NCBI GenBank assembly: GCA_000934665.2
Contig: JYFJ02004082.1
Span: 1 to 34,930 of the forward strand
Reading direction: 5' to 3'
From: Catajapyx aquilonaris
Taxonomy: Eukaryota
Length of the DNA stretch: 34,930 bases
The notes beneath the pieces were generated by a model. It saw only the letters and a list, made by a program, of their open reading frames with translations. It was not told the origin of the DNA and searched no databases. Positions 9,558-34,383 of the stretch are shown one piece after another; the stretch's first letter is position 1, and each line of letters begins with the position of its first letter. A program made the position numbers and the translations under genes.

Positions 9558-9560
<3 letters not shown>

Positions 9561-9590: not shown

Positions 9591-9592
<2 letters not shown>

Positions 9593-12949: not shown

Positions 12950-13876
12950 TTTCACCCTTCAAGCAACTTATCTAGGGCATAATGCACTAATGATGCACAC
13001 TCTGAAATGAATGCCACCACAGCCTTCCACTTCATACGGATGGAGTCAGGTGGCAAATGGAACAATATAGCAGGAAATGCTTTTTGGTTTTAATACAGAT
13101 TCAAGGCAATCAAGTGCTGTTGCTCGCGATCTACAGCCAGTTACACATGTTGTGTTTAAAAATTTGCACCCTGTACCACTTGAAACTTTATGGTGCTCTT
13201 TAAAAGAGATTCAAGAGGTTTCTGGTGCTTTGGATTTTTCATCCTTAACATTTAACTCAATTTGCATCTGGCATAACCCTCAGCCTAACCCCAAATGTCC
13301 TGACCATTTCCGTGCCAATAGTACACAAGTGGAAAAAACTACCTTGCACTCTGGCAAGCAGTGCGCATGCAGGTGTGGGTAGAAGTGTGTCCGAGCTCAT
13401 CTTGATTAATGCACTCTTCCACCCATGCCTTCTTGCTTGGCCCGGCTTGCAAGGTTATAAGGCAGTCTTTTTAAGCACTGTACTGCACAATGAGTCTACA
13501 TGCATTTTTCACACACCCAAGCACTGTATGTGTATTCACACTACCCTTAAAGTGACATTTTAAAATATATGTTTGGGGGGGGGGGGTGTAGTATGTGTTG
13601 TTTGTCACTAAAGCCTATGCAGCATACACTATGAGGTGTCCCATAAGTTGGGACCCATAGGAGTTTGTCATGTTACAGTGTTGAAGTATATAGGTTACTG
13701 TGCAACCATAGTGATATTTTATAGTGATTCACTGACTACACTTGTTACTGAACTTCTGAGAGTTAGACGTATCCTATGGGTCCAGACTTACGGGACACTG
13801 TGTATTTTATGTGACTAACACATCATGTTTACTCCCTTTTTCAACTAATTTTATCTCCTAGCTAGCATGAAAAGTA

Positions 13877-14089
13877 ATGACAAGTTTGTTCTCTGGTAGG
13901 TATGCTGACAAAGGCCCTGTGAAGGTAGCCTTGCTCCCATCTGGGTCTCCTCTACCACTGTCTCATGCTAGTCCTTCTGGACCTGAGGAGGTTGCATCTT
14001 CTCAGCAGCCACGGGTGACTCCTCGTCCTCCACTAGGAGGATTGCGGGACTTACAGCTACGCTTTTTATGTCCTGAAGATTTGGAAGAG
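13877..14089 (+). CDS. NAA60: NAA60 coding exon 1 (MTSLFSGRYADKG...LQLRFLCPEDLEE)
   Basis: ATG at 13877 follows a pyrimidine-rich acceptor (ttttatctcctag, AG 13860-61). Donor GAG|GTGTTC at 14090, phase 0. Confidence 0.8.
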
Positions 14090-17000
14090 GTGTTCTAATG
14101 CTTTTTTGATAGCCTAGTAAATGACCAATTTGTACCACACCAACTGCATCTACTTAGAAATATTGTTAACACAATGTGTACAGTAATATTCCTCATCACA
14201 GACAAGAGGCTATTGCAGAGGTAATGGTATAATCTTGAAAAAAATTATTGATTGGGGGAGGGAGGGGGGTAATTAAAATTCTTATTTACAAGGACAAGCA
14301 ATAAAATTCAGAATTTACTTTTCTATGCTTTATGTTTATGGTATGCCTCAAATGCCACTCTGATTCAGACCCTCATATAGTTGTAATTTGTGCCAATGCA
14401 ATCAAACATGTGTTTACGTATTGGTAACATGCACAACATTATCACCACATCCTATGTCTGTTACTGCAACAGTGGAATTGCTGATAATAATATCTTGAAT
14501 TGAGGACAAAGCAATGATAGGCACACTGTGTTTCCAAGTGAGCAATGGTGCATTTAAAAGCTCATGGTAGAAGGTAATCTGCAATGCAACACGCATCTGT
14601 GCCACAATGGCGATCCACAAAATAAAATCATGTTTGCATTGTGAGACAGTACAGTGTAAATGCCAAATGTGTTTCCATTCACTAATCAGTGTTGACCTGG
14701 AGAAATGTAGAAACACATGAGTTGAACATGATTGCAGTGACAAGCACAGCAATCCTTGCTGATATTTAAAGAAGCTGAAATGTATGTTATATAAATTTGA
14801 CCCCAGTTTCCTTTGCTTGACAGTTGCATTCTTCCATGATGCTCATATGAAAACTAATAATTTGAAATCAAATTAGGAAACACTTGAACATGCCTCATAT
14901 ATAAGCAATATCATGTTGGGCACATATTCACTTCATGTCAACGGTTATTATTGTTTTAGCTGGTTACTGGTTGAGGTTAGAGAATGGTTCAAGATATCTT
15001 ACTATAATTATCAATAAGTAAAATATTTAATGGCATCTCAATGTATAGGTGCGCCGCCTTTGTCGTGAATGGTTCCCCATTGAATACCCTGAGACCTGGT
15101 ACCAAGATATTACATCAGATGCAAGATTTTATTCATTGGCTGCAGTTCAAGAGGGACGAATTGTTGGACTTGTCGTAGCAGAAATTAAGAATTATCATAA
15201 GCTGAATCGTGAGGTAAGGATCATGTTCAGAGTGTGTCATTCCCTCCCTATTTATGAGGGAACTTCACAAAGAATTATAAAGTTGAATTCTTAACATGCC
15301 TCAATTTAATAAGTATGATCTGATATAAAAGGCCATGCTCATGTTTTATGTCACACTTCAGAACTGGACATTTGAAATTTATTAGGAGAACAGAATAGTG
15401 TTCTCCAAGAGGAATATATTGATAATAGTGTCTCTTGGTAACTAAGGAAGTTACTAGATTAAAACATTGCCCATTGACATGAGAATATCATCGTCCATAA
15501 GGAGAAAGGGCAAATAGACTGTTTAGAAATTTTACAGGAGAGGTAAAAATGGGTTGAAAATCTGAGTCAAAACGAACTGAGGCTGATTTTTTATGTGACA
15601 AAGAGAATTAGTTCATGACTCGCAGTGAATGCCATCGTGTCCAGAATGTATTGAAGTATTAGAACACCAATTCTTGTTTGAATATTCCACGATCCCAGGC
15701 AATGGTGATTCCGGAAGTAGACCTAGATTCACATTCGCCTCTGCTCTGCCAGGAGGTTGGCGGTGAGGACCAATATTCAGTGTTGAGGTTTTGTTTCCGT
15801 TTGAATAAAACAGCCACAGAGGTGTACGACATGCTAAGATTGTGAACAGCAGATACTGGTTGTGTTGTTGGCCAGTTGGCACAATTGTCAGTATGGGGAA
15901 GTAGCCTTCATTTTGGAAACTACATAATAAATTCGACCATATTTTTTGGATTTTTTTGGCATATTCCGTTTTAAGATATCAGTTTCAGTTCCGGAGATAT
16001 TGGCGTTTTTTCGTAGGCAAGTGACGTCACTGTTTGCCTCGAAAATGTTGACGTCACGCGAAGTGAAATGAGCGCAAAAATGGTGTTATAGAACGCGCCC
16101 CGTCATTGTTGTAAAATGCTTCGCTGTTGTTAGCAACCGTCCCATTCCGTGAGCAAGATAGCAGCCGGGGCGCGTATTTATTCCAGGCCGCTCAAATCGC
16201 TTTGTACGTGGCAGTGATGCCACCAGCTCGGAAATATCTGTCTCCCGAATTAGGCACATAAAGGCCCCCCTTCTCCACCTCGATGACCTACAGCCGCCTT
16301 GCGAATGCTTTCCGTCGTGTCCGCGGTTAATTCAAAGTCAAATTCCTCATATCTAGCAGTCAACCAGTCATTTCAGTGTACCCTTTCGATTGGCACCACC
16401 CGGCTGCCCCGTTTTTCCCGCCAATTTTAAAGGCACTTTTAAATGTGCCGTAATTTATCCAGTAATGTCATTTTGATGCAACAGAGTGATGGAATGTATG
16501 TTTACAGGCATGGGCTAGCTAGTTATGAACAAAAATCCCAAATCCCAGACCAAGGCTACTTCCCCATTGTCAGCTGGCAGGTTGTTATGAGTGACCACAT
16601 TCAGTAAACACTCAGGGCCGTTTTCTCGAACAGTGGTTCAAATGTAAACCAGGTTCAAAGCCAGTTTAATCCCTGATTTGATTGTTGTTAGGCTGTTGTC
16701 AAGGGTTTAAATCGGCTTTGAACCGGGTTTACATTTGAACCACTGTTCGAGAAAACGGCCCTCAGGGTGGATTGCAAAGATGGAGTTTAAACCACGGCGC
16801 AATTAGAACGTGGTTGAAACCAGGATTCCGCTTGCAAAGACAGGGTTTAGCCTAGAAATGGGGTTTAAACTGCGGCCTAACTCAGACCACCTTCGAGGGT
16901 GGTTTAAACCTGGTCCAGACGGCTAGATGGAGTAGGACGGGCTTGATTATGACCGCTGTCTTCACCTTCTACAGCAATTGAAGGTTCTACCGCCCTGCCA

Positions 17001-20000
17001 TTGTGCATCTCAATGTACCCCCGCGAGCATAAAGATGGAGACGGCAAGCCCTTTTTTGACCTTTCTTTATCCGACTCAAATTCATGAACTCTTTTTGGAC
17101 TGAGTGAGCTGCTTCAGGCGTGTTTTCGTGTATTTATGACAGAATATTTGATACCGTAATAGCTGCGATTGGCAGAGCAGCCTGCCGAAGGTGAGGGCCT
17201 GCCGTCTCCATCTTTATGCTCGCGGGTGTACATGCTACAGGTTACTTCTGTCTCCTGACCTGGAACATGCTGATATGCAAGGACTAGGACTACAGGCAAT
17301 AACACAGATTGGCAAGGATAACCTTCAAACCTGAAATAAAATTATGTACATGAGTGGCTAGAGGGAGTAGGCATCACATCATGTGATCAAAAGGGAAGCA
17401 ACCCACCAAAGCGCCGTCCAGTCAATAAAAAATGAGCTGAAGGCTATATCAATGTAATGTTTACTTTTTCCAAAAGTATTACCTGTGATGGATTAGCTAT
17501 TAATCTCACTGAGACACTAGGCCTACAAAGGGCATCTCATAAAAGTCCTTGGGTTATTACTGGAACCACATCCGAACCCACTCATTTATCCTATGTCTGG
17601 AATCAGCATCAGCACAAAGTTTTCTTCAGTTCACCAAAACCGTGAAAGTCACAGGACGACAGGTTGGTACTGTAGTGAGGGGATGACAGGACTTTTCACT
17701 TCAATTTCTGCATAATTATTTTAATGAAATATGCAGTATGGAGGCGAGCATTATCATGGCATTCTCGCATGTAAGGACTGCGATTGGATGGCACGGTCGG
17801 TGCATCGCTTCTCTTTTGATAACGTGATGCGATGCGTGCTTACTCTAGCCGCGCATGCACATAATTTTCTTTAAGGTTTGAAGGTTATCCCTGCCAATCT
17901 GTGTTATTGTATGTTCCATAGATTTTTCACAATAAATACAGCTTGTTTTTTATTGACTGCACCTAATAGTTAAAGGTACGTATGTGCCAACATGTTGCAA
18001 TGTAGTTTTTTGGGAAGTTCTTTAAAAACTTTTTATGCCCAAAGAACCCTTACTTTCTTGACAAATCAATGTTTGGTGAAGTTCTCTCATCACAATCAGT
18101 TATATCAGTTTCCACCTGCAGTAATTCTAAAAGTCATTTTAAAATAATTTTGTTACCCTTACAATTGCCCCTAGTTTATCATGTGATTCCCCTAACATTG
18201 CCAGAGTTGAAGTGCAGGACTGGTTCATAGAAACTGAAGGTTATTGTGGGATTATTGTGGGTCCCAAGTGAGCCAGGAGAAATTGGGCATTTACACAAGC
18301 GGCAAAATGTGGTATTCTGGGGAATAGAATAAATGAACAGTTAAGTGAACAGAGTAGTTGTTGCTACAAGCCCTTTAAATGAGCCAGTCACTACACCTCA
18401 CAGTGGTTTCAGAATATTTTAAGTGGAATAAATGTGAGGTAAGTTAAGCAATGATGGTAATGGAGAATAAAAGGACTATTTACTTTACAGGACCAAGGTA
18501 TCCTGTCACTTCCACTGACTGGTGGGACGCAAGTTGGGTACATTCTCAGCCTTGGCGTTGTGAAGGAATATCGGCGACTTGGTGTTGCCTCTCTTCTTTT
18601 AGATGCTCTTCTTTCTCACCTGACTACTGTTGAGCACCACACATGCAAAGCTGTCTTCTTGCATGTTCTGGCATCCAACATAGCCGCAATACGGTTCTAT
18701 GAGCAGAGAAGCTTTCAGTAATGACTTATTGCAGTAGTCTTACTAAAATGAAGCATTTTACTCCTTCCTAATCCTTGTTTTGCAGGCTCTACAGCTTCTT
18801 ACCATATTACTACAGCATCAATGGTCGTAGCCGAGACGGTTTCACTTATGTGCTCTATATCAATGGTGGACATCCTCCATGGGGATTATTATATCCTTTT
18901 ACAAAATATATACTGACAATGTGCTTGTATTGTTTGATAGCTCTTGTTGGGTTTGTTATAACTATAGCCTTACTTGTTGCAATTGAAGTGTCTGCAGTGG
19001 TAAATGATTTTTTTTGCCACTAAACTACTCATTTTTACCCTATTCCAAGATATGTACCAAACTAAATTGACACAAAAATTAACATAGCCACATGATGGTG
19101 CGCATGTCTAACTACCACCACACACAAACTCATTGTTGATAAAAACTTATTCAAATAGTGGCACCAAAATTTGTGAGCTTACTTTGAGCACTCTTGCTTC
19201 CAAGCACATTCCTTTGTCTCTTGGACACACACTATATTCTCATCTGTGAATATATACATGGTGGTCCAACTTCAAGTGTCGTTTTATAACGTTGATTAAT
19301 AGCAGTGATTTTGCGATGACGTAGCAGCGACGTGTAAAATGTCCCACTTCGGCGCCATCGAAAATATTAGCTGCCAATAGCAGCACACATGTAATCAACC
19401 CTGCTGCTGGGTTGACCTGGAAAAAAGGAGGTGCACACATGACCTGCGATGCGCCTGGGTGAAATGGGTGACGTCCAAGGCACCAGATGGACCATGGACC
19501 TGTAATGCAAGGGGGAAGCCTGCAAACGAAACACAGCTAATATTTTCGATGGCACCGAAGTGGGCCATTTTACACGTGGCTGCTACGATAATAATTTCTA
19601 GGTTGTGAAAAAAAGTAAATGTCACTTTGTGCAAGGTTGGGACCTGACATTCCACTTGAAATTATGGAGGACTTATGACAGCATCTGACTGCAAATGGCA
19701 GTTCACATGTAGACATTACTGAAAGTCTCTAAGTTCAAGTGGGGCATCTTTTATTACCATGGTCTTATGTGCATCTTGTCTGGACACGCCCTCTCTTTTT
19801 GTGTCCACTTAGCTGCTCCCCCCCTTCCAGGAGGGGTTGCTGCTCTGATGCTGATGATGCTCCATAGTACCTTAACAGGTGGTGGTCCTGGTGGACTCCG
19901 CACATTTATGGAAACATGTTTAGGGGGTCGCAGTTGGTAAAAGGTTGGAAACCACTGCCCTAATGAGTGAACAAGAGACGAAGGAATCGGCTTGGGGGTG

Positions 20001-20904
20001 CAAATTCTAGACATGAGCTTACAAAATATGGTCACACGGTTTGTAAAATGTTTAGGGTAAATTTGAAATATTTACTGCCAAATACAGTAAAACTTCTAGA
20101 AGTCGAATCTCCATGGGACCGGAAAAAAACTTCGAGTTAGAGAAGATTCGAGTTAGAGAAGTTCGGAATGTTTAAAACACATCACCTACCTTTATATCCA
20201 GCGACGAAAGGTGTTCAAAACTTAAAAATAACTGTCACTATCACATTTACAATGTTCCTCATTGTTTTGGTGTAAAACAAACTCTGTTATGGACATTTGC
20301 CGACTCTTAGATTCAAGGATTTAATTGTCACAATCGAGTCAAACACTTCTTTCGGTACGTCTGGTAGACGGAGATCAGGAAATTGAGCCTTTCTGTATAT
20401 GTGGCCTACTCTCGACCCTTCGGCTGGGAAATTAGAAAATTTTCCGTACTCGCCAACATGAACTTGGACTTAGGGAGACTGAAAATGCATTAATATCCCA
20501 TTGTAAGGCCCTGCCAGCACGTTGAGTTATAGAAATTCGAGTTAGGGAAGTTTATTTCCTCTTATTATACATTGTGACGAACCAAGCTCATCATTTCCTT
20601 CGACTTATAGAGAACTTAGACATAGGGAAGTTCGACTTATAGAAGTTTTACTGTAGTACTTTTGTAATGTCATGATATTAAGCAGTTATTTTGTTACAGT
20701 TACTTTTAGAGGCTACTACTTGTATTACTGGTGTTACTTGAAGGATAATTTTCCTTATCTATGAACACAGATTACACAAAGCATTGGCTACAGTGCATGG
20801 CACGTAGTAATCCATGTGCTGTACCTCGGTGGTTGTGGTTAAGAACACAGGCAGCTCTCAACTGGGTCATTCCAGCCGCTAGGCGCCTGGTCAGTTTTTC
20901 TTAA
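13877..20904 (+). CDS. NAA60: N-alpha-acetyltransferase 60 (NatF, GNAT fold), spliced CDS join(13877..14089,15049..15213,18491..18717,18786..18890,20769..20904), 281 aa
   Basis: Exons sum to 846 nt in one frame. Motifs LQLRFLCPEDLEEVRRLCREWFPIEYP, GYILSLGVVKEYRRLGVASLLL (acetyl-CoA motif A), KAVFLHVL, AIRFYE and LPYYYSINGRSRDGFTYVLYINGGHPPWGLLDY are characteristic of NAA60. The start codon is uncertain (see findings). Confidence 0.93.
15049..15213 (+). CDS. NAA60: NAA60 coding exon 2 (VRRLCREWFPIEYP...KLNRE)
   Basis: tatag|GTG acceptor and GAG|GTAAGG donor; conserved WFPIEYP..WY..IT motif. Confidence 0.95.
15893..16567. mobile_element. GC-rich non-autonomous DNA transposon (superfamily unassigned)
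   Basis: 16-bp TIR ATGGGGAAGTAGCCTT / AAGGCTACTTCCCCAT, flanked by a TGTCAG direct repeat; CpG-rich interior. Confidence 0.7.
16615..16761. mobile_element. Palindromic Tourist/PIF-Harbinger-like MITE (147 bp)
   Basis: GGGCCGTTTTCTCGAACAGTGGTTCAAATGTAAACC arms are nearly perfect; 3-bp TSD TCA on both sides. Confidence 0.85.
17297..17966 (-). mobile_element. Mariner-derived element, copy 2 (outer left end missing)
   Basis: Colinear with 10940-11632; ends TTATTGACTGCACCTAA. Confidence 0.85.
18491..18717 (+). CDS. NAA60: NAA60 coding exon 3 (DQGILS...GYILSLGVVKEYRRLG...FYEQRSF)
   Basis: tactttacag|GAC acceptor and CA|GTAATG donor; GNAT motif A. The ORF track shows only a different frame here. 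Confidence 0.95.
18786..18890 (+). CDS. NAA60: NAA60 coding exon 4 (LYSFLPYYYSINGRSRDGFTYVLYINGGHPPWGL)
   Basis: gttttgcag|G acceptor after a 68-nt intron; ends at the U12 donor ATATCCTTTT. Confidence 0.95.
19320..19587. mobile_element. MITE/foldback with 54-bp arms in the NAA60 U12 intron
   Basis: CGTAGCAGC.ACGTGTAAAATG.CCCACTTCGG.GCCATCGAAAATATTAGCTG and its reverse complement at 19534-19587. Confidence 0.7.
20085..20653. mobile_element. Tc1/pogo-like MITE family A, copy 2, inside the NAA60 U12 intron
   Basis: Same TIRs and TA TSDs; ends about 100 bp upstream of the U12 branch point. Confidence 0.85.
20769..20904 (+). CDS. NAA60: NAA60 coding exon 5, C-terminal membrane-binding tail (DYTKHWLQCMARSNPCAVPRWLWLRTQAALNWVIPAARRLVSFS*)
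   Basis: Splicing TT|A at AC 20767-68 restores PPW.LLDY..H......S.PC, which aligns with the known NAA60 C-terminal amphipathic region. TAA at 20902-04. Confidence 0.85.
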
Positions 20905-22978
20905 GGAAGCCTCACTCTCCAACAAATTCCCATAAATCTGGTTGATGTTAGGTGATGCCAGAGTGCCTTGGAAACAACCTGAACAACGACCTCTGATCAG
21001 TTAACAACTTTGTGTACAAGCACGTGTCTATGCCCATGCCAAAGCAACGCTATAGGGTTGGAGTTTGTAAGGTTTGCATATTAAATATAACATCAGTCTT
21101 TTATAACCTAGATAAAAAGATGTAATGGTTCACACAGATATTTTATACTACCATTGAAATTCTCATGTAAAGCAATAGCAAGTCTCTTCCACATGAAATT
21201 GATCAGACTCTAAATCAGAATTCTACACTAGCATTAGTTGCTGGTCGTGGTAACAGTCCTTTCAGGTACATGACATGTGCATGTGACATTTGTCAATGAA
21301 ACATAATTCAACATCTATGACGTACATGAGTTCTCCTGTGCCAAATTTCAGGTTACATGTTTCATCCATTAACCTGTGAGATATGTTATTGAGCATTTGA
21401 CCTGTAGCAAGCTGTGGAACTGATTCAAAGAACTTGGTTAATTTCTTTTTGTAATTTTTTAAATTATGAAGTTAGTGTGTGAACAGATGGTTGAAGTGAA
21501 TATGGTCAGGTATTTCCATGAACATCAGTGTCCTCTTTGCATTTTTAAAAGATATTGGTGAAGAGTTCTCTGCAATGCCAAGCCGATGTTGATGATTTCG
21601 ATGGATGAAACACATTCAAGCTAGTTGAGATCAGACCAAAAATGATACGCAATGGATCGAGTGAATGTGAATTATTCCAATTATTACGATACTCATACCG
21701 GCAATTATTTTCAAGATCCCATGAGAGTCTTCAGTGGATTTTTAAAAATGAGTAAAGCAAGAGGAACACTATGATATTTGTAAGAATGTATGTATCGATG
21801 CTCAAGATTAATTGTTATACCTTGAAAGTCTGTCATCATCCGACTCATTCAATTTTATATTGTTTATATCTCTACATAATATAGAACCACTCTTAGGTTG
21901 ACCTTTTGTCTTCTGCCTTGAAGAAGGCACACATGAAGTGGTTCTCCCTGTATAAGGCCATTCTCAGGGTGTTTTCTTGAAGGTCGATTGTTATGATGCA
22001 GGTGAGTTGGCAAGTATAATTATTTTTTACAGATTTGTAATTCTCAAACATATGAGAAAGTTGGTGTTTACGAGAAGTTTATGTGAAAATTGTGCATTAT
22101 GCATTTTGTTAGTTCATATGAGAAAGCACTTAGCATGGTCATAACTGAGGCTAAGGATGGTGACTACCTTTATAGACTTGTAAATTGTACAGTGTGGTCC
22201 ATAAATCCTGTCAGCTTTCAATGATGGACAAGTCACGAGAGTTTGCCCAAGATTGTATTGATATACTTTATTGTATTTGTACATATGTGACAATCCTTAA
22301 CAAAAAAATATGGTGCTATGGGCATGTCACGCTTCCAGAAATGCCCTCTTTTTACCCTGTGGTGTAAAAAATGTTTTCCGAATACAGTATTTGTTGATAA
22401 TATGGGGTAACTCGACTCACTATGACAAATGTTGAGAGTGTAGTTCTTCAGGTTTGATTTTGTTCTGCATGTGTGCAAGGGCCATGTGGGGCAAGTTTCA
22501 TACTCAATCACTAACAGCTTGCCTCTTGCAGGCACATTTGTGTCTGGTTATACAGAAGGTGGAGCTGTAATAAAAGGGGATCAAAGTGTCAATGCTTTTA
22601 ACAAGGCATTACCTGAAGAGGAAGAGCATTTATGCTGATGGTAGTTTAGAAGGCAGTGTCATGGTGAGTGCTACATATGCAATTGCCCTCTGCCTCCTTT
22701 TCCAAGATTTATGGACCATCCTTACATCATCATCTAGCATGTTATGCTTGCCAAACTGCCTGAGACCTGTAAGGCCTCTGGTCAGAATGAGTACTTGCAG
22801 CTATTGTTATTGATGTGGAATCGTGGATTTCTAGGCTAAGGCCCTTGATTAAGTATATTAGGTTCTAGCATGCTGCATTAACAACTGTTCCATTGAGATG
22901 TCATTCACTACACATCTTTATAATCTGCAGGATGGCCAGAAAACATAACACTATGTATTAGCAGAAGCTACATAGATA

Positions 22979-23279
22979 CAGGGTGTAAATGAAATAAGTG
23001 CGCTTTATTTGCAGAATGATAGTGACCCGAAGGAAACATTTTTTGCCAGTACATTTGGTGCCGCAGATCGTTACGTCAGAAAACTCGGGTTTATCACGCG
23101 TCATACAAACACGTCAAATTGGGGTAACTAGAGTTACCTTACCCAAATGTGACGAGTGACAAACCCTCGTTTTGTGATGTAACAACTTGTCTGCGGCACC
23201 AATTGTATTGACAAAAATGTTTCTTTCGAGTCACTCTATCATTCTGCAGAAAATAAGTACTTATTTCATTTACACCCTT
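22979..23279. mobile_element. Tc1-like palindromic MITE
   Basis: TA|CAGGGTGTAAATGAAATAAGT...ACTTATTTCATTTACACCCT; arms pair over most of the length. Confidence 0.8.
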
Positions 23280-23576
23280 TACACAAAAAGTGGGTGCAGA
23301 ATTGCTCTCCTTCCCTTTGGTATGTAAGGCACTTTCCATCACAGTGGTGATGCGTTAGGCTACATCAGTGATTCTCACAGTGAGGTCTATGGTCTATCAG
23401 TGGACCACAAGGATCCTGCTCATGGCTCATGGGCCATGAACTGATCTGAAAGTGCTGGAAATTTCTTTACAGAGAACTGACAAAATTCCTTAATTCCTGG
23501 GGTTGGTCGTCCAAGGGATCTCTTGTATTTCCTAATAGTTGCAGTCAGGGAAGTTTGAAAACCTCTGCACTAAATT

Positions 23577-25050: not shown

Positions 25051-25169
25051 CAACAATGAGCTGAAAGGTTCCCAACTCACCCCCTACATCACTGCCAATG
25101 CTACTGATCTAAAATTATATTTTTGTTCATGTATGATTTGTAGCAGATATTGATCATTTTGTTTATTTT

Positions 25170-25171
<2 letters not shown>

Positions 25172-25218
<47 letters not shown>

Positions 25219-25456
25219 TAATGCCACCCCATGGTAGGCGAGTGGCATCCTAGGGGATCTTGGAAATACATGGCTTAATGCTGCTTATGGATTTTTGAGT
25301 GGAAAAAAACTGGAGCACACTGAGGAAACCCACACAGACATGAGACTTTCCATTGTTCTATATGCAAAACTCCTTTCCACATGAAAATATTGATCGCTCA
25401 ACATGGGGATTGAACTTGGGACAGTGGAAGGCTGTAGCCTAAACTGTTGCACTAAC
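25172..25456 (-). mobile_element. tRNA-derived SINE with V/Meta-like central domain and (TTA)n tail
   Basis: Minus strand: B box GTTCAATCCCC, then GGAGTTTTGCAT...GTCTGTGTGGGTTTCCTCAGTGTGCTCCAGTTT. The (AAT)n array at 25172-25218 is the tail. Confidence 0.65.
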
Positions 25457-26216
25457 ATATTTATTGCCTGGGTTTATTTGGCAGTGTTTTCTGGCCACCC
25501 TTTATACATAATAAATTGTGGAAGTGACAGGTGGTCTATTTGAGATGTCCTTGTATTTGGCTTCGGCAAAGCTCTTCCTACAAGCATGAAAATGTATTTA
25601 AAAAATAGAAGACTGTGGAAATCCCATTCCACCATGGGCTGCAGAACTTCAACAACAGAATGCAGTGAAGTATGTGAAGTTGCATACCTTGTATACTACA
25701 GTTTGCATTAAGTTAATTGTTTCAGGCACAGTGCAAATAGAAAACTGTAAAACTTATTAGGGGCCATGAATAAATTATGTAACTCTGTTTTTGGTGATTA
25801 TTGAATATCATGACAATGATCTTGATTACTGCAGCGAAAAGAACGATATTGTGCATTTTTGTTTATTGGAAGCGTTTCCCCCCCCCCCCCCCCCCCCNCC
25901 CCCCCCCCTCCCCTCCCCTCCTGAAGACCACAATTCAATCTCTTGCACAGTAATGCATAGGTAAACACCGATAGTCATGCTTGCAAGGGTGTCTGCCTCT
26001 CTCTCTGTCCTGCACAGCACTTGGAGTTCGAGTGTGGATTTCCGTATGCTGGTTTTTCTCGCTGGCCTGTGGGTGTTCTGGTTGTTTTCAGGAGAATATT
26101 CTAGTCACTTGGAGGAATTTAACAGTTGCTGATTCCTCTTCCACGGGGGAGGGCCTTGATTTCTCAAAGTACCGCGTCGCATAGTGTAATATTTAAATTT
26201 AATATTGAGTGTTTGT

Positions 26217-26365
26217 CGTCTGAGATGGGCAGGGGTGGGGGGCGGGACGGGTTGTTTATAGGTTTATTTTTACAAGTTTTAATTTAGTTCATATTTTGGG
26301 TTAGCTTGTGGCTCCCGTCATCGCTGACTACCCCTTATAGGGAAATGTCGTGATGGTGATGATGA
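26217..26365 (+). mobile_element. RTE-related 3' end (same family as 3648-3800) with a (TGA)n-like tail
   Basis: Aligns by eye to the reverse complement of 3661-3800, e.g. GGGCAGGGGTGGGGG, TTGGGTTAGCTTG and TCATCGCTGACTACCCCT.ATAGGGAAATGTCGTG. Confidence 0.85.
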
Positions 26366-26627
26366 CAATGCAATAAGAGCCCAATTGTGAAAATAGAAAA
26401 TGTCCAGAAAGCGAAAAAAAAAAACTATTTATTTCTGTTTCTGTTCGTAGTAGACAATTGTGCTCTAAACCTAATGACAGATATATACCACCAGACATGC
26501 ATTTTGAGACTGTGCTCAGCTGCCAGCATGTCCGTGGTGGCGAAAAAAATCTGCAACACACCACCACAGAAGCGCCGCCTAATTTATGCGGCAGCGCTGC
26601 CATGGTGGTCTCGTGTGAAAATAGCCT

Positions 26628-27197
26628 TACAAGGGGTGGATATAGAGTAGTGCCAACATCATCTGGCACTGCACAAATACCAAATGGTGTTGTTGTACCT
26701 GATACTAGTAGCTGGTTGTCTTGCAAGTCAGATAAGCACATTTTCACCAGTTCATGGCATTAGAAGAGGGAGGCTGTGAAGTTATGTCAAGCAAGACTGC
26801 CTTAAAGACAGGTTCACCTGGACAGAGCAATGCACGAGTATAAAAATAAAGGTTGTGATGATTATGAATATTTTATTAGGTGTTCAAGAAGTCTGTGGTG
26901 CTGAAGCACTGCCACATCAGACTGTAGCACTTGACAAAGTTGAAACAATCCCTGGAAGAGACAATTTTTGCACAAGAGACGCTATCGGTGAAGCAGTAGG
27001 CAATGCAGGGCGTTCTTGAGCACATCCAAACAAGAACAAAACAAGAATAGCTTATGTCTAGTGCCTTCAAAAAGTGTGGGAGAATGTTGTGAATGTGGAA
27101 AGGGATTATCCTGAAGGAATGTAAAGCTAATTTTCATCCCAAAATTTCCCTTACTCATATAGAGGTGTCACCACTATTTTACACCATGTCTTTGTAA
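26628..27197 (+). mobile_element. Highly decayed mariner-like element
   Basis: Degenerate ends TACAAGGGGTGG...AGTAGTG and CACTATTTTACACCA...TGTA. About 27070-27125 reads WE..V.VE.DY.EG, like a mariner C-terminus. Confidence 0.35.
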
Positions 27198-28098
27198 ATG
27201 CTTATATTTTTTAAACTGTCCCACCACACCATCACATGAAGAAAAGTATTCCATTACTTGGCCCAACTTGCCAAGAATTCATCACATTGTGTGGCTTCCT
27301 ACCAAAATATGTCAGTTACGAACTGTTTTGTGTGTTAGGCTACTGCATACCCCTAACATCTCATGGCATCCAGTAATATATTCACCTATCCTGTACGACT
27401 AGTTCTCCCCTGGGTCACAAAACCTGTGGCCAACCAGAAAAGTTTTATGAAGTATGACACAGTCATGCCACATGCAGTGGCAAACTAATAACCCAAAATA
27501 AAACTTAGCACTAGTCACTAGTGTTTGAAAATTATATCTTCTTTTTCGATGTAAGAAGTTCTCTCCAATGCTTCTTGCATCCATATCTACAAGACCTGTT
27601 TTCTCTACAACAAGACCTAGATTATTCAAAGCAGCTTGCTACACTCGCATCTTGCTTAACAGGGTTTGTCTCTCTTCTCAAATAGATCCCCACTACATCC
27701 ATTCACTTTTGCTAACATCACTCCCCTTCCTGATACTTTTTTTTCCCCCCAAGAGGGTGCACAGCAGGGCCATTGTGACGGGTTTTATATCCTGATCGTC
27801 AATATTTGTTTAGGTGTGTCTTCTTCAGCTTGGGGATGGTCAGAAGTTGTGATAGCTGAACAGGGGCTCGTTTGGCCAACAAAAACCCTGATTCCTTCCG
27901 AGTCACAGAGGGGTATGTATTTTTGAGAACAATATCTGGATAAAACCCATCAACTCTTAAAGAGAAAAAAAGTCCAGTTTGTATTTGAATGAGTGGAAAC
28001 ATAACTACAATGCTAGGACCTGATCCTCAGATGAGAATAACTTAAGTCTTGTTATAACATAAAAAGAACTCTTGTAATATAATTAGAATTCAACTAGT

Positions 28099-28357
28099 TC
28101 AGGATGTGTTATCTCGAAAAGCAATGCATGTTACTGGCTTCTGATGACCACTATATTCTCGTTTGACTTCACCACTTTCAATGCTCCAGAGACGAGCCAT
28201 GTTATCTGATGATGATGTGAAAACATACTGTCCATCAGCACTGAATGCAACATCCCAGACCCATCGCTGCCCTTCTTCCTTCAGTTCTGTCAAAAGTGAA
28301 AAATCTGTGGTCCTCCAAACCTTGGCAGTCTGGTCAGCAGAAGTGGTCACCAGTAAA
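28099..28357 (-). CDS. MLST8: mLST8 coding exon 6 ([14 protein letters not shown]...AFRDNTS*)
   Basis: cacacag|T acceptor; TGA at 28101-28099. Confidence 0.95.
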
Positions 28358-30701
28358 CTGTGTGAATACAATTAAATGGTATTAACTGTCATTATAATGA
28401 CAAGCACAAAATAAGCATTTTCTATTTCTGGGGTCCTAGCCGCTTCACTTAAAATACACTGAATGCACCAAGATTTGAGCTACGTTATATTACAGATACC
28501 ATAATATGGAGCCAAAAAGCTCAAACGTAACCAGCCCACGGACACTACCCCTACAGTCTTATCGCCTGCCGGGGCATTTTGCATGGGGTGCTCACCTGAG
28601 AGTGCCATGAGACATTTCACTGCTGGATTATGTGGCGACCCTACGGAACTATGCCGAACTTTATAGGTACAAAAGGGAAGGGCTACATTGGGGGACCCAA
28701 CATGGTCGCCGGCGGCCATGTTTGGCCCGCATGTAGCAGCTTCTCTTCTACCTTAGTTCAGCGTAGTCCGGTAGGGTCGTCACATAATCCAGCAGTGAAA
28801 AGCTGTCTCCTGGCGCTCTCAAGTGAGCACCTCATGCAAAACGCCCCGGTAGGTGATAGTGTGAGTGACCAGACCTGAGTATTCTCAGATAATGAACGTA
28901 ACTCATACAAATAAGCAGCTAAGTTCCAACAAATAGCTATATTCGTCTAACAGGTATTTTTCATCACCTTGTATTTTTGTCCTCAAGAAAACCTAACCGT
29001 AATTAAGTGGGACTCCCTCCATCTCTACCCGACTTACGTAGAATCTGGGCTGAACCGGCATTTTAGTCCGTAGCGTTGGTGAGCAGCTAACTTATGTTTT
29101 GGATGCAACTGTACAGCTTCTTCCCTTCCACCACTCAAACTCCAAACATAGCAATGACCTTTATTGGTTACTGCTGCCATATATGATGCCTCAGGATCTA
29201 TTGACACGTGTTGAATAAATGCATCTTGCTCTGGAATCTGGTAAAAAAGGGTATCAGCACATTTCAGAGATGTATTTTCCAGAACTTGAAGTCAATTGAG
29301 GGGCTGGGTGCAAAAAGGGCCCATCCCACGCAATGTAACTGCTGAGAAATGAAGCTGTACCATGGAAAGTTCTCCTTACATCTTCCTAGTAATTATTTTT
29401 TAATGGCTCCAAGACCCATCCAAACTCGCGGAGGTTTTACATGTCACTAACAGATAGTAGTAGCCACGCAATAGTGGAAGAATCTAATTTTTCCTCAGTG
29501 CAGAATGGACCCTTTTTGCACCCAGCCCCTCAATTTCAGACACCCTGCTGAAACATTTTGCTTGCATGAACCAATACCTCACTTCAATATAAATGCACCA
29601 TATGCATTCCTCCAATATGTAGTGAAAATTATTAGCATCTTTTCAATAACCCTTACCAGCTGTTCATTATGGTCTGTGCGTAAATTCCATATGTGAATAA
29701 TTCCTGATTGGTCACCCACTATTAGTTCAGCCTGGCTTGGATGTAAACAAGCACAAGTAACAGGTGCCCCGACTTGAAAGATGCGCTGGCACTGCGGGTT
29801 GCGTCCTCTACAGAAAATAAGATAGCACGAGTTACGCAGAATGCCATCAATTATTCTCAATCACCATAAGAATACCGCAGATCCCAGATTTTCGCACTGC
29901 AATCCTCGCCACCAGTGAACATCCAGTTTCCTTCATCATTAAATCCAACTGCAGTCACATTTTTGCTGATTCCCTCGAAATTCATGACTGGATTTGAATT
30001 GTTGGAGTTGACATCATATGTACGCACATGTTGATACCCTAAAAACAAACACATATCATGTTTGCTCAGTGCAACAAATAAAGAAATCTCCTTGCCTACC
30101 TCCAGCTGCTATTATCCGGCCATCTTGTGTAATTTCCAATGCATTTACTTGCTAATGTGCATTAAGGAATGTCAATAGCAATTTCAAAAATACTTAATAA
30201 CTATAAGGAGTCAAGGTAACTGGTGGAGATTGCTTGAAACATCTCTCGTCAACACTCGCCGGGCGATAACAACGCTGAGTAACCATGGTTACTCAGTGTC
30301 GTCATCGCTTGGCGATGACATCGCGATATCAAATCGCTCACATGTAAACGCCGCTTTACAAAGTGACTGCTTATGTAAATTCTAAGTAATTGTTGCCACA
30401 AGTTACTCTCTCAGGGAATTTCTCCATGGCTTATCAATGCACCACTGCTACAAATTTTTATATGCCCCATAACCAACTGCTAAGACAATGCAAAGGATAC
30501 CGAATCTGCATGCTGGAATGTCTTTTGACAAATCCCACTGTGAGCCTGCCAAAATTTGATGGTGTGATCATATCCTCCTGTGGCCAAAACCACCTGCTCC
30601 ACACCTGCTCCACTATCACCTCCTGCATCCATCATCTGAGTATCACCATGAGCCTCGTTCGGCCCCGATACATTAGATTGAGATAAGGATGCTTGTGGCA
30701 T
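28099..30701 (-). CDS. MLST8: Target of rapamycin complex subunit LST8 (WD40), spliced CDS complement(join(28099..28357,29038..29237,29657..29807,29876..30038,30100..30151,30501..30701)), 341 aa (319 aa if started at ATG 30635)
   Basis: Exons sum to 1026 nt in frame. [108 protein letters not shown] and [12 protein letters not shown]...[15 protein letters not shown] are diagnostic of LST8. Confidence 0.96.
28560..28858. mobile_element. Foldback/MITE with about 100-bp arms in mLST8 intron 5
   Basis: 28560-28660 pairs with 28755-28858 (TTTCACTGCTGGATTATGTG.CGACCCTAC / GTAGGGTCG.CACATAATCCAGCAGTGAAA). Confidence 0.75.
29038..29237 (-). CDS. MLST8: mLST8 coding exon 5 ([34 protein letters not shown]...CRFSPDS)
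   Basis: ttttttaccag|ATT acceptor and AC|GTAAGT donor; missing from the ORF track, translated by hand. Confidence 0.94.
29298..29531. mobile_element. MITE with AATT TSD (Sola-like) in mLST8 intron 4
   Basis: AATT|GAGGGGCTGGGTGCAAAAAGGG...CCCTTTTTGCACCCAGCCCCTC|AATT. Confidence 0.75.
29657..29807 (-). CDS. MLST8: mLST8 coding exon 4 ([12 protein letters not shown]...DHNEQL)
   Basis: ttttctgtag|A acceptor and CTG|GTAAGG donor. Confidence 0.95.
29876..30038 (-). CDS. MLST8: mLST8 coding exon 3 (GYQHVRTYD...KIWDLR)
   Basis: gtttttag|GG acceptor and CG|GTATTC donor. Confidence 0.95.
30100..30151 (-). CDS. MLST8: mLST8 coding exon 2 ([17 protein letters not shown])
   Basis: cacattag|CAA acceptor and G|GTAGGC donor; too short for the ORF track. 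Confidence 0.92.
30152..30500 (-). other. U12-type GT-AG intron of mLST8
   Basis: 5' ss GTATCCTTTG and branch TTCCTTAAT (30169-30161), 9 nt before the end of the terminal AG; no polypyrimidine tract. Confidence 0.92.
30501..30701 (-). CDS. MLST8: mLST8 coding exon 1 (...MMDAGG...[29 protein letters not shown])
   Basis: ATG at 30701 or 30635; ends at the U12 donor GTATCCTTTG. Confidence 0.9.
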
Positions 30702-31621
30702 ACTCGATTTTCCACACAGTATTGTTCAGCGCCCCTTTACCTCATGTACACGTTAGTATTTGCACCTACCAACGTCACATGATACTGTTCGAGCAGGACT
30801 AAAAGCAGGCTAGCAGGAACGTGATAATTTTCTTACGGTATTTTACGTTCTGCTGAGTTTGCTTATATAAGCATTCAGCATGGCGAAACATCTGCACGCT
30901 TTCATTCACTGCATTCTAGTCATGATTCTCGTAAATTCTATCACGGCGAATCGCACGGCCATCTTGCTGGTTTAGTTTCACCTGTGTGCTATGATAGCGC
31001 TGTATGCATGGGCGAAGGTTGAAGGACATATTCCCTCACGTGATAGGCTGCACAACAACGCATTTTATCAATCTGGGGACCTGGGGGCATATATTTTTAA
31101 AAATTACATTCTTTGAGTGGGTGAATCGTGGGGTGAATGTATTGGAATGCATTGAAGCCTCGTGTACTGCTCGTGCAGGTCTCCATGTCTCAGGTCTTAT
31201 TGATACTGTCCAATCAGCGCCAATCAGCGTGGCAAACACCAATCACCTGATTGAAGTGCTACAATATGGCTGCCCCAACCGCCCAATATCCCCATGCCGC
31301 CCCAAACTGTGTATGTACTTATAAATAAATTAAAATTTATTCGTGCTAAATTAAAAACACAATTCCTGAATGAGCTCAAGCGAAGGCGAATGTGCTGCTC
31401 TGTGGGCTGATTGTCAAGCTAAGAGGTAGTGGCTCATCCACGTTTATACTAGATCCATGATCAAAGGCTCTATTCGCCAAGACCAACCGTGAGCCGTACA
31501 ATTCGGATTCGGACTAGACAGGTTATTTGTACTGTATACGTGTGTACAGTAGGTTTACGTTGAAGTTCCTCAGCTGGCAGTGGTTTGGTGAAGACGTGAA
31601 GTTGCGGCTCCTATTTTCGAC
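30702..31621. promoter_or_regulatory. Putative bidirectional promoter / 5' UTR region between mLST8 and UBXN4-like
   Basis: The divergent start codons are about 920 bp apart. The region is CpG-richer than the gene bodies and has a YY1-like AAGATGGCCG on - at about 30956-30965. TSSs cannot be located from sequence alone. Confidence 0.55.
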
Positions 31622-31718
31622 ATGGAAGGGCCACGGGTTCGGTATTTTGAAGGGGACATACCCGCAGCTGTGAAAAAGGCGCGCGCAGGAGGAGCAATAT
31701 TTGTTGTCGTGATAAAGG
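31622..31718 (+). CDS. UBXN4: UBXN4-like coding exon 1
   Basis: gacATGG start context; G|GTGAGA donor, phase 1. Confidence 0.8.
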
Positions 31719-34383
31719 GTGAGATATGTTTTTGTCATGTCATATTCCGTCTGTGTGGTCTGTGAGACATGGTGCTAGTGGTTGAGGTTATGGTTTTGGA
31801 TTTGTGGTTTTGATTGTGACACTTGTGGAGTTGGCGTGTTGTCCATCCCTGTCGTCATAGCTCGTAATCTTAACCAGAGAGCAGATGAACCTAAAATCGG
31901 TTTTTGTGAATAAAAATATCGAGCTCTGCCTGTCACATGAAATGGTTTTGATTAACCCAGATATGCCGAGTGTGCCCTATAGGGGACACCTGCACAGTTG
32001 TTACATTTTAATTTTTTGCGCAGGTTCTTCTGCTGCTAAAGAGCTCGCAGTAGTGATGGGGGCTTCAGTAGAGTCCCAGCTAACTATAAAAGTTCAAACC
32101 AGCTCAATATTGCTTCAGATTTTTAAGATACAGATGTTTGAATTTTAACGCAGGAAATAATGGCTGCACCTCCATTCTCGAATGCTGATTAGCATTATGA
32201 GTTATTTTTTGTTTGTAATACTTAGAAAACTCATGAATGATGATGTCCATGTGGAAATTTAGGCATATTTTTTACTTTCCTTGTCTGAGGGTGGCGTTGA
32301 AATCGGGTGTCCCCTATGAGGGACACTCGGCAAATGCACCACAAATGGATCGGCAAGTCAAGCACCGGTACTCTAGGCTACTGTATGCGTCCGGACTTTG
32401 TGCGTTTTGTCGAACTGAATTTTTATGAATCCCTATTTTTAAAACGAGGGTTACCCGGCAACTGGGTTGCCATGGCAACCATCGTAGCTATGCTGGTAAC
32501 CCATTGCCATGTACAATCTAACATTATCATGCATACAAACTTTCTCTTTTGGGTACAGTGAAGCCCAGTGGCGGATCTATAGGGGGAGGGGGAGCGTGGC
32601 GACAAATCCCCCCCCCACCACCACCAACAACAACAACAACGTCTAGATCCGCCACTGGTGAAACCTGTGTATAGCAGAATAGCACGGTGCCCTAGAAAAA
32701 TCAGTAATTGACAAGTTTCTGCTGAAAATTACGATTTTCCTAGTCATCAGCACCAAACGGGAAAGAGTGGAAGTGAACGCTGCAACGGCACAAAGCATAT
32801 TGTGGGCAGAGAGTGGGGGAGGAATAAGAGTGGCGCTGTTGTTGCGGATCGCACGCGAACCATTTAACTATGTCGGAACCGTGATGTCGGATATACATAG
32901 TACGGTATATCAGCCGTTTCCGCTATTTTCGACACGGTATTTATGTCCTATACATACGCCCGTTCCCGGAAAAATTTCGCAATGGACAAGTTTTTTGTAA
33001 CACTCGGTACGTTATGGACAGGTTTCACTACATATTTATCTAGAGTGAATCCTGTCCATAACGGACCCTCAACGTAACGGAAACTTGCCTATTGCGGAAT
33101 TTTTCTGGTAACGGGCGTATGGAAAGTATACACTATTTCCGCGTCGAATATAGCGGAAATTGTGTAATTTTCATACGATAGTTACCAGAAAAATTCCGCA
33201 ATAGGCAAGTTTCCATTATACACAGGGTCCGTTGTGGACAGGGTTCACTGTATATTTATATACAGTGAAACCTGTACATATCTGAATAGCAAGTGACTCT
33301 AAAATTCCGCAATGAGCAAGTTTCCGCTATACCCTCCTGAGACCCGAGAAGCCATTTGTGCAATTATTTAGTAATACTTTGAAAGAACCTTCTGTAGTGG
33401 AGGTGTAGAAGCCATTTTTCAGAATATTTCATATTTTTGTTGCTATCACTTATTGCAAAATTAGATGTCCTATATATAGGACATTGGGTCTTAGCTATAA
33501 CATTCCTTCTCTATATTTTTCAATGAATTAAAAAAACACTTTCATCTTTATTTCAATACAGCAGCCTATATCTTACGTTTTCCTTGTGTATACAGTATAG
33601 CTATACTAGATGTTACATTTGCCGAGTGTTCCCTATAGGGGACGGCACTTTTCTTACAATCTAGCATTCCATAAATTTTTTTATCGTTTTTGTTGTGTTA
33701 TGGGGACTATCATGAACTAATAAAATCAAACAAAAACCAAAATTGAAACAAAAAATCTTTCAGGCATATCTGGGTTAAGGTAGGAGGTTTAAGATAGTAT
33801 TTCAATAGAAAGTCAGAATTTTATTAGATTCTTCTGGTTGTGACTGCACAACAATATATTGATGATTTTTATTGATGTTTTAAAGGTGATGAAGAAAACG
33901 TCGCGACGTGCATCCAAGATTCAGCATTGAACCACCCTCGAGTTGTGAGATACCTAAATTCTGATCATTTTGTTGTGATCGAGGTATATGGTGATCAAAA
34001 GGCCTTCAACTACTTCGCTGAATACTGTATCCTTTTCATGCAGAAAATGTAAAGTTGAAGTATGTGATCCACTTTCTTAACAGTGTGACAGTTCCTGATG
34101 CTGAGGTACCATCCATATACTTCTTCAGCAGTTCGGGCAGCCTTATGCTTGTCTCAGGAGGAGAGGAAGTCGATCCTGAGCTACTTCTGGAAGACGTCCG
34201 CACTGTCATGGACAAGAAATTGGTATTCACTTTTTTAAACTCTTGAACCAGTTTTGGAAATCACAACAAGTTTTTTGATTGACCTTTGTTTACTAGGGCA
34301 GTAATATGTCTGTTGTATTTTTACTGACCTCTGTTTTGTTTTTAAAGTATACCGCTGCCAAACAAGCTGAAGCTGAATATCAG
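31622..34383 (+). CDS. UBXN4: UBX domain-containing protein 4-like, N-terminal thioredoxin-like domain; partial CDS join(31622..31718,33886..34026,34092..34222,34348..34383), continues beyond the window
   Basis: The spliced peptide MEGPRVRYFEGDIPAAVKKARAGGAIFVVVIKGDEENVATCIQDSALNHPRVVRYLNSDHFVVIEVYGDQKAFNYFAEYFPDAEVPSIYFFSSSGSLMLVSGGEEVDPELLLEDVRTVMDKKLYTAAKQAEAEYQ matches the UBXN4 N-terminal pattern (W/Y)F.G.I..A......A.FVV...G...FV.I......F.....P...VPS.(F/Y)F...G. No UBX domain lies in the window, so ortholog versus paralog is unresolved. Confidence 0.75.
32556..33332. mobile_element. Three adjacent Tc1/pogo-like MITEs of one family (32556-33030, 33043-33250, 33263-about 33332 truncated)
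   Basis: Ends CAGTGAA(A/T)CCTGT / ACAGG(T/G)TTCACT, separated by short TA-rich spacers; shared TTCCGCAAT...CAAGTTTCC internal motif. Confidence 0.7.
32566..32657. mobile_element. 92-bp hAT-like MITE
   Basis: TIR CAGTGGCGGATCTA / TAGATCCGCCACTG; 8-bp TSD GTGAAGCC / GTGAAACC (1 mismatch). Confidence 0.8.
33886..34026 (+). CDS. UBXN4: UBXN4-like coding exon 2
   Basis: ttttaaag|GT acceptor; open frame; ends at the U12 donor GTATCCTTTT. Confidence 0.85.
34027..34091 (+). other. U12-type GT-AG intron (65 nt) of the UBXN4-like gene
   Basis: 5' ss GTATCCTTTT, branch TTTCTTAAC at 34073-34081, AG at 34090-91; frame restored (T|TT = Phe). Confidence 0.88.
34092..34222 (+). CDS. UBXN4: UBXN4-like coding exon 3
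   Basis: gacag|TT acceptor; same frame as ORF 34055..34246 (PDAEVPSIYFF); TTG|GTATTC donor. Confidence 0.8.
34348..34383 (+). CDS. UBXN4: UBXN4-like 36-nt coding exon 4 (YTAAKQAEAEYQ)
   Basis: Branch ctgac plus tgttttgtttttaaag acceptor; CAG|GTAATT donor; phase 0-0 and open. Confidence 0.6.

What the first reader, a model, noticed from the sequence alone, without database searches (positions are those of the whole stretch)
13877..34383. Three adjacent, unrelated genes each carry a minor-spliceosome (U12) intron
Seen: NAA60 has ATATCCTTTT...TTCCTTATC...AC (18891-20768), mLST8 has GTATCCTTTG...TTCCTTAAT...AG (30500-30152), and UBXN4-like has GTATCCTTTT...TTTCTTAAC...AG (34027-34091). Each restores the homologous reading frame. 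Known: U12 introns are well under 1% of introns, occur in a small minority of genes, and are often rate-limiting for expression. Inference: three of three neighbouring non-paralogous genes is unlikely by chance. It may mark a local cluster of minor-intron genes (Golgi N-acetylation, TOR signalling, p97/ERAD), two of them sharing a bidirectional promoter, co-limited by U11/U12/U6atac activity.
Basis: partly seen in the sequence, partly recalled or inferred. Interest (0 to 1): 0.75.

Follow-up and report, generated by a model that had tools for sequence, protein, structure and literature searches.

The report
Three neighbouring genes, ancient minor introns
Three unrelated neighbouring genes in an insect-like genome each carry a transcript-confirmed intron with minor-spliceosome signals, likely the same ancient introns already catalogued in their human and mouse counterparts, and their side-by-side position is most likely coincidence rather than a co-regulated cluster.

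Summary
All three U12-type introns sit at the stated coordinates, are skipped exactly in transcript-like contigs of one run and open the reading frames. The genome has U11, U12, U4atac and U6atac. The introns are not new: human and mouse NAA60, MLST8 and UBXN4 are catalogued minor-intron genes with matching phase. The UBXN4 name here is recalled; no database search confirmed it. The cluster idea is weakly supported. The genes lie on three chromosomes in mouse and respond unequally to minor-spliceosome inhibition. Around 34 other credible U12 introns of this genome (1.11 Mb), only 1 had an unrelated U12 neighbour, against 0.4-1.6 expected by chance. A triple is still rare: about 0.001-0.3 expected per genome at random, more if old genes cluster. 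mLST8 and the UBXN4-like gene are head-to-head, 524 bases apart. Insect synteny could not be tested. Verdict: real, ancestral, probably coincidental.

The parts
13900..20904 (+). NAA60 gene, coding exons 13900-14089, 15049-15213, 18491-18717, 18786-18890, 20769-20904; start codon probably in an unlocated upstream exon
   Evidence: Open 273-aa frame; exon 3 matches human NAA60 structures at E 1.4e-19 and insect NAA60 at up to 69%; spliced protein 52-64% identical to 7 of 7 homologues aligned; last two joints in X1
18891..20768 (+). U12-type AT-AC intron of NAA60, phase 2, branch site TTCCTTATC at 20751-20759
   Evidence: Sequence; X1 joint 18890>20769 AT..AC; human donor TTT|ATATCCTTA fits the same phase; Drosophila Naa60 also has a minor intron
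27670..30975 (-). mLST8 gene, exons 30975-30501 (ATG 30635), 30151-30100, 30038-29876, 29807-29657, 29237-29038, 28357-27670 (stop ends 28099)
   Evidence: Open 319-aa frame; exon 1 best matches human mLST8, E 1.2e-17, ending at human residue 43; all 5 joints in X1
30152..30500 (-). U12-type GT-AG intron of mLST8, phase 0 after Ser, branch site TTCCTTAAT at 30169-30161
   Evidence: Sequence; X1 joint 30151>30501; human donor TCC|GTATCCTCC; mouse Mlst8 is used as a minor-intron reporter
30976..31499 (.). 524-nt gap between the divergent 5' ends of mLST8 and the UBXN4-like gene; likely shared promoter, 5 CCAAT/ATTGG boxes
   Evidence: Transcript ends at 30975 and 31500 in X1 contigs (contigs do not fix true starts); 5 boxes against 1.02 expected, a post hoc count
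31500..34383 (+). UBXN4-like gene, 5' part: exons 31500-31718 (ATG 31622), 33886-34026, 34092-34222, 34348-34383; continues off the contig
   Evidence: Open 135-aa frame; three joints in X1; name recalled, no database hit
34027..34091 (+). U12-type GT-AG intron of the UBXN4-like gene, 65 nt, phase 1, branch site TTTCTTAAC at 34073-34081
   Evidence: Sequence; X1 joint 34026>34092, not the AG directly behind the branch site; human UBXN4 donor TCT|GTATCCTTT fits phase 1

Best explanation
Each of the three genes carries a U12-type intron that is spliced at the predicted sites and is likely inherited from an early animal ancestor, and the genes most likely came to lie side by side through ordinary rearrangement among old housekeeping genes, without selection for shared minor splicing. 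Mechanism: U11/U12 would recognise each donor and branch site and U4atac/U6atac.U5 would excise each intron, gene by gene (inferred from the signals and the snRNA genes; not tested by knock-down). Shown: signals, joints, open frames, snRNA genes, and minor-intron status of the mammalian genes. Inferred: positional orthology (strong for NAA60 and mLST8, recalled for UBXN4), a shared promoter for mLST8 and the UBXN4-like gene, and chance adjacency.
For: All three mammalian genes are catalogued minor-intron genes whose donor context fits the same phase. The mLST8 exon ends at human residue 43. Three Daphnia NAA60 proteins read 'YPF' at the junction, as the unspliced frame of the window does, which suggests the same AT-AC donor in crustaceans. 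The genes are unlinked in mouse (chr16, chr17, chr1) and human. Neighbour test: in 1.47 Mb around 47 pattern hits, non-anchor RTATCCTT sites numbered 75 against 98 for the reversed control. Among 34 credible anchors (1.11 Mb) 1 had an unrelated U12 neighbour, against 0.39-1.55 expected for 100-400 introns placed at random. Close minor introns of unrelated genes also occur in human: NOP2 and CHD4 14 kb apart; IK, HARS and HARS2 within 35 kb. [quoted passage not shown]
Against: A triple is rare under random placement: 0.001-0.09 expected per genome by distance, 0.004-0.28 by gene order, 0.02-0.09 from the measured neighbour rate. It approaches or exceeds 1 only at the upper limit of that rate (0.6-2.4) or if old genes are assumed to cluster strongly and 250 or more introns exist. 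The genome-wide U12 count is poorly known (capture estimate about 110, range 46-832). The neighbour test rests on one event, on my judgement of which sites are real, and misses donors other than RTATCCTT. No insect relative was available for synteny.
Confidence: 0.8

Rival explanations
1. Selection keeps the three genes together because neighbouring, co-transcribed minor-intron genes share a local pool of scarce U11/U12/U6atac particles and are throttled together.
For: Low chance expectation per genome; 524-nt head-to-head gap with 5 CCAAT boxes; one more unrelated pair, 8.3 kb apart on contig C21; all three mammalian introns respond to minor-spliceosome loss in at least one dataset.
Against: Unlinked in human and mouse. 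Unequal responses: human NAA60 9 of 9 datasets, UBXN4 4 of 9, MLST8 2 of 9 in each of its two rows; mouse 4, 1 and 2 of 6. No excess of neighbours at 34 other anchors. The three proteins share no pathway that I know of (recall).
Confidence: 0.08
2. Minor-intron genes cluster mildly genome-wide only because they are old, broadly expressed genes that sit in compact housekeeping neighbourhoods; the triple is the tail of that clustering and has nothing to do with splicing.
For: Gene-age bias of minor introns; head-to-head layout; expected triples reach 0.09-0.98 for 150-250 introns if confined to 4000-6000 conserved genes (those gene numbers are assumed). This overlaps with the best explanation and differs only in how strong the clustering is.
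Against: The measured neighbour density (0.9 per Mb, 95% interval 0.02-5) does not exceed the genome-wide estimate.
Confidence: 0.3
3. This lineage has gained many new U12 introns, so triples are common.
For: The genome is fairly rich in U12 introns: 38 pattern matches against 13 for the control; 40 credible introns seen here. One neighbouring pair lies in genes absent from the mammalian minor-intron tables.
Against: All three introns have mammalian counterparts. Density around anchors is about 1 per Mb. The estimated total is in the range published for arthropods (Pediculus 88, Tribolium 101, Nasonia 139, Strigamia 143, Solenopsis 146, Ixodes 175).
Confidence: 0.03
4. NAA60 is joined to the other two genes by a misassembly, so only a pair is real.
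For: The assembly is fragmented (20,583 contigs). The stretch between the two 3' ends holds repeat fragments and an N in a C-run near 25898. No laid contig bridges it (searches did not cover 24501-27499).
Against: No positive sign of a bad join was seen.
Confidence: 0.04

Closest known systems
Human and mouse NAA60, MLST8 and UBXN4 minor introns (Minor Intron Database tables, Olthof et al. 2019, PMC6717393; Table S6 of Olthof et al. 2024, PMC11347168)
   Same: Same genes (UBXN4 by recall), same subtype (NAA60 AT-start, the other two GT-start), donor context fitting the same phase and codon.
   Different: In mammals the genes are unlinked; here they are neighbours. Intron lengths differ (human 1101, 143, 591 nt; here 1878, 349, 65).
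Drosophila Naa60 minor intron (3L:9728615-9728712, responsive to U12 and U6atac knock-out; PMC11347168 Table S6)
   Same: A minor intron in insect Naa60.
   Different: 98 nt long; its position in the protein and its neighbours were not checked.
Close minor-intron genes in human: NOP2 and CHD4 (14 kb); IK, HARS, HARS2 (35 kb); PIGN and RELCH (opposite strands on chr18)
   Same: Minor introns of unrelated genes lying close together (coordinates).
   Different: HARS and HARS2 are paralogues. That NOP2/CHD4 are adjacent, that other genes lie between IK and HARS, and that PIGN/RELCH are head-to-head is recalled. I saw no strict run of three unrelated genes in the roughly one quarter of the human list that I read.

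Membership tests
U12-type (minor) spliceosomal intron | 5' splice site RTATCCTT | tested here: met
   ATATCCTTTT, GTATCCTTTG, GTATCCTTTT at the three donors
U12-type (minor) spliceosomal intron | Branch site like TTCCTTAAC close to the 3' end | tested here: met
   TTCCTTATC, TTCCTTAAT, TTTCTTAAC ending 9, 9 and 10 nt before the intron end; each differs from the consensus at one base
U12-type (minor) spliceosomal intron | AT-AC or GT-AG ends used in the spliced product | tested here: met
   Exact joints in X1 contigs, one contig each, one run whose kind is not on record
U12-type (minor) spliceosomal intron | Host encodes U11, U12, U4atac and U6atac snRNAs able to pair with the sites | tested here: met
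   Rfam hits over the cut-off: U11 (2), U12, U4atac, U6atac. Duplex energy of the 3 donors with U6atac -6.7 to -8.2 kcal/mol against -0.1 to -4.4 for the 10 other donors; with U11 -8.3 to -12.3 against -1.8 to -9.5, so one ordinary donor overlaps
U12-type (minor) spliceosomal intron | Splicing depends on minor snRNPs (retention on knock-down) | not testable with these tools
   Shown only for the human, mouse and fly genes in published tables
Orthologues of the catalogued mammalian minor introns | Same gene and same position and phase | tested here: met
   NAA60 and mLST8: gene identity by PDB and protein hits; the three exonic bases before the human donors fit phase 2 and phase 0; the mLST8 exon ends at human residue 43. 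The human exon maps themselves were not fetched
Orthologues of the catalogued mammalian minor introns | Third gene is UBXN4 | tested here: inconclusive
   No database hit for its short exons; an isolated UBX exon on C4632 could not be linked to the window; identity rests on recalled N-terminal likeness and the phase-1 match
Functional (selected) gene cluster | Conserved synteny across distant species | tested here: not met
   Three chromosomes in mouse; two chromosomes and 1.3 Mb apart in human. Insects not testable: no relatives held
Functional (selected) gene cluster | U12 genes adjoin each other more often than chance | tested here: inconclusive
   1 of 34 anchors against 0.39-1.55 expected; 95% interval of the rate 0.001-0.15. 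Strong clustering is excluded, weak clustering is not
Functional (selected) gene cluster | Co-regulation or co-response of the members | not testable with these tools
   No expression data for this organism; the mammalian genes respond unequally
Head-to-head (bidirectional) gene pair | Divergent 5' ends within about 1 kb | tested here: met
   X1 contigs reach 30975 (-) and 31500 (+), 524 nt apart; shared promoter activity not tested

The most novel reading that the evidence does not exclude
In this insect-like lineage, rearrangement brought three ancient minor-intron genes together and selection keeps them there, because co-transcription at one locus concentrates the scarce U11/U12 and U6atac particles. 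It would be a first case of gene order shaped by spliceosome type.
Probability: 0.08. Interest if true: 0.75.

Novelty: new member of a known kind. Interest (0 to 1): 0.22.

Why it matters
As it stands it is a good annotation result: three ancestral minor introns kept in one 15-kb stretch, which ab initio predictors tend to read through (as the Daphnia NAA60 proteins appear to show). The locus would be a convenient single target for testing minor-spliceosome knock-down in this organism. If the adjacency were selected, it would link genome organisation to spliceosome type, which my five literature searches did not find described; the present evidence gives that about 8%.

Tried and rejected
(1) Other splice sites for the three introns: rejected; X1 joints match the U12 sites, and for the UBXN4-like gene the joint uses 34091, not the AG right behind the branch site. 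(2) No RNA holder was listed for the mLST8 stretch; the one run found was laid instead. It shows no joints for NAA60 introns 1 and 2, and one contig runs on into intron 1; lack of cover is no evidence. (3) Confirming UBXN4 by database: nothing from Pfam, protein searches, representatives, Atlas, PDB or the UBX7_N family in the genome (69, one weak hit elsewhere). A UBX exon on C4632 has no overlap with the window end. (4) AT-AC pattern count: 16 against 23 for the control, no excess, though several hits look real. The first, looser pattern gave 126 against 233. Only the GT-AG patterns beat their controls (19 against 3; 38 against 13). (5) Long U12 introns were not counted genome-wide, and no flanks around non-U12 housekeeping genes were obtained as a control, so the total and the matched background stay rough. 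(6) 13 of the 47 anchors were dropped as not credible or uncertain before the 1-of-34 count (10 in the second batch, 3 in the third); none of them showed a credible U12 neighbour either. 72 of the 75 non-anchor sites were judged chance, exonic or U2 (e.g. C1735:19456, C185:103192, C1364:10083). (7) Literature: five searches listed no paper on adjacency or clustering of minor-intron genes; passages of PMC6865273 had none. No counts for hemimetabolous insects were obtained. (8) Earlier findings: no note on a cluster of unrelated U12 genes and no look-alike window in another genome.

Full report
Setting. The window is the whole of contig C2200 of G000, a 285.6-Mb assembly in 20,583 contigs. The best protein matches of NAA60 exon 3 are insect proteins at 64-69% identity, so the organism is insect-like; I did not place it further. 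No relative genome is held.

Observation. They are the only three RTATCCTTT matches in the window; shuffles give 0.73 on average and 3 of 100 reach three. Contigs of one public run, X1, skip exactly 18891-20768 (AT..AC), 30152-30500 and 34027-34091, one contig each. The same run skips seven ordinary introns of the three genes; 4 further joints listed look repeat-derived. X1 is not on record as RNA but behaves like cDNA, and it is a single run. Joining the exons gives open frames of 273, 319 and 135 residues. NAA60 and mLST8 are identified by hits to the human structures. The third gene is called UBXN4-like from my recall of the human N-terminus; nine calls with its short exons or the family found nothing. 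I recognised no other host gene among 84 ORFs of 75 residues or more. The NAA60 start probably lies in an exon further upstream, since an X1 contig aligns from 13899 with 150 unplaced letters before it.

Machinery. U11 (two copies), U12, U4atac and U6atac all pass the Rfam cut-off. The three donors pair with this genome's U6atac more strongly than all 10 other donors of the window, and with U11 more strongly than 9 of the 10; the mLST8 intron-3 donor (-9.5) beats the NAA60 U12 donor (-8.3). That the minor spliceosome removes these introns is inferred, not tested.

The introns are old. Human and mouse NAA60, MLST8 and UBXN4 are all listed as minor-intron genes (PMC11347168 Table S6; PMC6717393 tables). 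The listed human donors with three exon bases, TTT|ATATCCTTA, TCC|GTATCCTCC and TCT|GTATCCTTT, fit the phases seen here (2, 0 and 1). The mLST8 exon ends at human residue 43. Drosophila Naa60 has a minor intron that responds to U12 and U6atac loss. Three of seven NAA60 homologues aligned, all Daphnia, read YPF at this junction just as the window's unspliced frame does; I infer read-through of the same AT-AC donor. So each intron is best explained by inheritance, gene by gene.

Is the adjacency more than chance? First, synteny: the genes lie on chr16 (2.21 and 3.48 Mb) and chr2 in human, and on chr17, chr16 and chr1 in mouse. Insect synteny could not be tested. Second, base rate: donor-plus-branch-site patterns limited to introns of up to about 430 nt gave 19 matches against 3 control and 38 against 13; a looser pattern and the AT-AC pattern did not beat their controls. 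I saw 40 credible U12 introns in all. A capture estimate from 6 introns found without the pattern, 2 of them captured, gives about 110 with a range of 46-832, in line with 88-175 published for six arthropods. Third, a neighbour test: I fetched up to 20 kb on each side of 47 pattern hits (1.47 Mb) and scanned both strands. Non-anchor RTATCCTT sites numbered 75 against 98 for the reversed word. I judged 34 anchors credible (1.11 Mb) from open frames on both sides and recognisable proteins; 12 of them have a Pfam hit (14 of 41 exon pieces scanned hit), and the other gene names are recalled. Three of the 75 sites look like real U12 donors: one in the same gene (C1379), one in a tandem paralogue (C226) and one in an unrelated neighbour (C21:232054, AT-AC, followed by a TFIIIC zinc-finger exon, 8.3 kb from its anchor). 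One unrelated neighbour compares with 0.39-1.55 expected for 100-400 randomly placed introns. Strong general clustering is excluded; weak clustering is not, and the test rests on one event and on my calls.

How rare is a triple? For 100-400 introns: 0.001-0.09 per genome by distance, 0.004-0.28 by gene order (15,000 genes assumed), 0.02-0.09 from the measured neighbour rate with an upper limit of 0.6-2.4, and 0.03-4 if the introns are confined to 4000-6000 clustered old genes. But it was picked after the fact from a scan of some 250,000 windows, minor introns favour old genes (PMC10639083), and close minor introns in unrelated genes also turn up in human: NOP2 and CHD4 14 kb apart, IK with HARS and HARS2 within 35 kb (gene order recalled). 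With about 700 of 20,000 human genes, 0.86 adjacent triples are expected by arithmetic alone.

Co-limitation. In the published inhibition datasets the human introns respond in 9 of 9 (NAA60), 4 of 9 (UBXN4) and 2 of 9 (each of two MLST8 rows), the mouse ones in 4, 1 and 2 of 6. All depend on the minor spliceosome, but not in step. This concerns unlinked copies, so it does not test a locus effect here. The head-to-head layout is real: X1 contigs reach 30975 and 31500, and the gap holds 5 CCAAT boxes against 1.02 expected (post hoc). Such pairs are common among housekeeping genes (established knowledge) and need no splicing explanation.

What I saw of each paper. PMC11347168: passages, supplement parts 1 and 15 of 265 and searched rows. 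PMC6717393: searched supplement rows and part 8 of 9 of file 8. PMC8034651, PMC3291851, PMC12084885, PMC6865273: passages. PMC10639083: passages and a species list in its supplement. All others: search listings only. Five searches listed nothing on clustering of minor-intron genes; subscription papers are largely missing from the library.

Verdict. Observation confirmed; interpretation partly supported. Three new members of a known kind, in an arrangement that is most likely coincidental (0.8), with about 8% left for a selected cluster. Interest 0.22.

Noticed in passing
G000:C21:232054-232352 (+) and C21:223700-223794 (-); L071, L070: A second pair of unrelated neighbours with U12 introns, 8.3 kb apart on opposite strands: an AT-AC intron before a TFIIIC zinc-finger exon (GTF3C4-like) and a GT-AG intron in a METTL18-like gene (name recalled). 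Neither gene name occurs in the mammalian minor-intron tables, so these may be minor introns absent from mammals.
   Followed up: partly
G000:C1735:19454-19508 (+); L136: A 55-nt intron in a METTL14-like gene (name recalled) starts GTATATCCTTT: a U12 core shifted two bases behind a GT, with no U12 branch site. It could be a U12-to-U2 conversion or chance.
   Followed up: partly
window 29875-29808 (-): mLST8 intron 3 has a minor-like donor GTATTCTT that pairs with U11 at -9.5 kcal/mol, but I saw no U12 branch site.
   Followed up: partly
G000:C171:80642-80776 and C288:110681-110815; L033, L034: Two U11 genes with identical score. The 5' end of the C171 copy could pair along the whole GT-type donor from +1 to +10 with two G-U pairs; the human U11, as I recall, does not pair with +1 to +3.
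   Followed up: no
G000:C187:83431 (+) and C187:100005-100108 (-): The U6atac gene lies about 16.5 kb from an AT-AC U12 intron of a KCMF1-like gene (name recalled).
   Followed up: no
window 13860-13925: The NAA60 exon starts at 13900 behind an AG. An out-of-frame ATG at 13902 opens a 6-codon frame. The in-frame start must lie in an upstream exon for which no joint was listed within 9500-24500.
   Followed up: partly
window 3827-4645 (-), 11123-11359 (-), 24535-24852 (-): A LINE-type reverse-transcriptase fragment (Pfam RVT_1) and two fragments that look like mariner transposase (recalled; no Pfam hit).
   Followed up: no
G000 pattern searches: Matches lean to the reverse strand (83 against 43, 15 against 4, 29 against 9). 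Unexplained; it may reflect contig orientation or the way matches are counted.
   Followed up: no
P0024, P0032, P0037 (Daphnia NAA60): These database proteins end in a tail that looks like read-through of the AT-AC intron, so their C-termini are probably mispredicted.
   Followed up: partly
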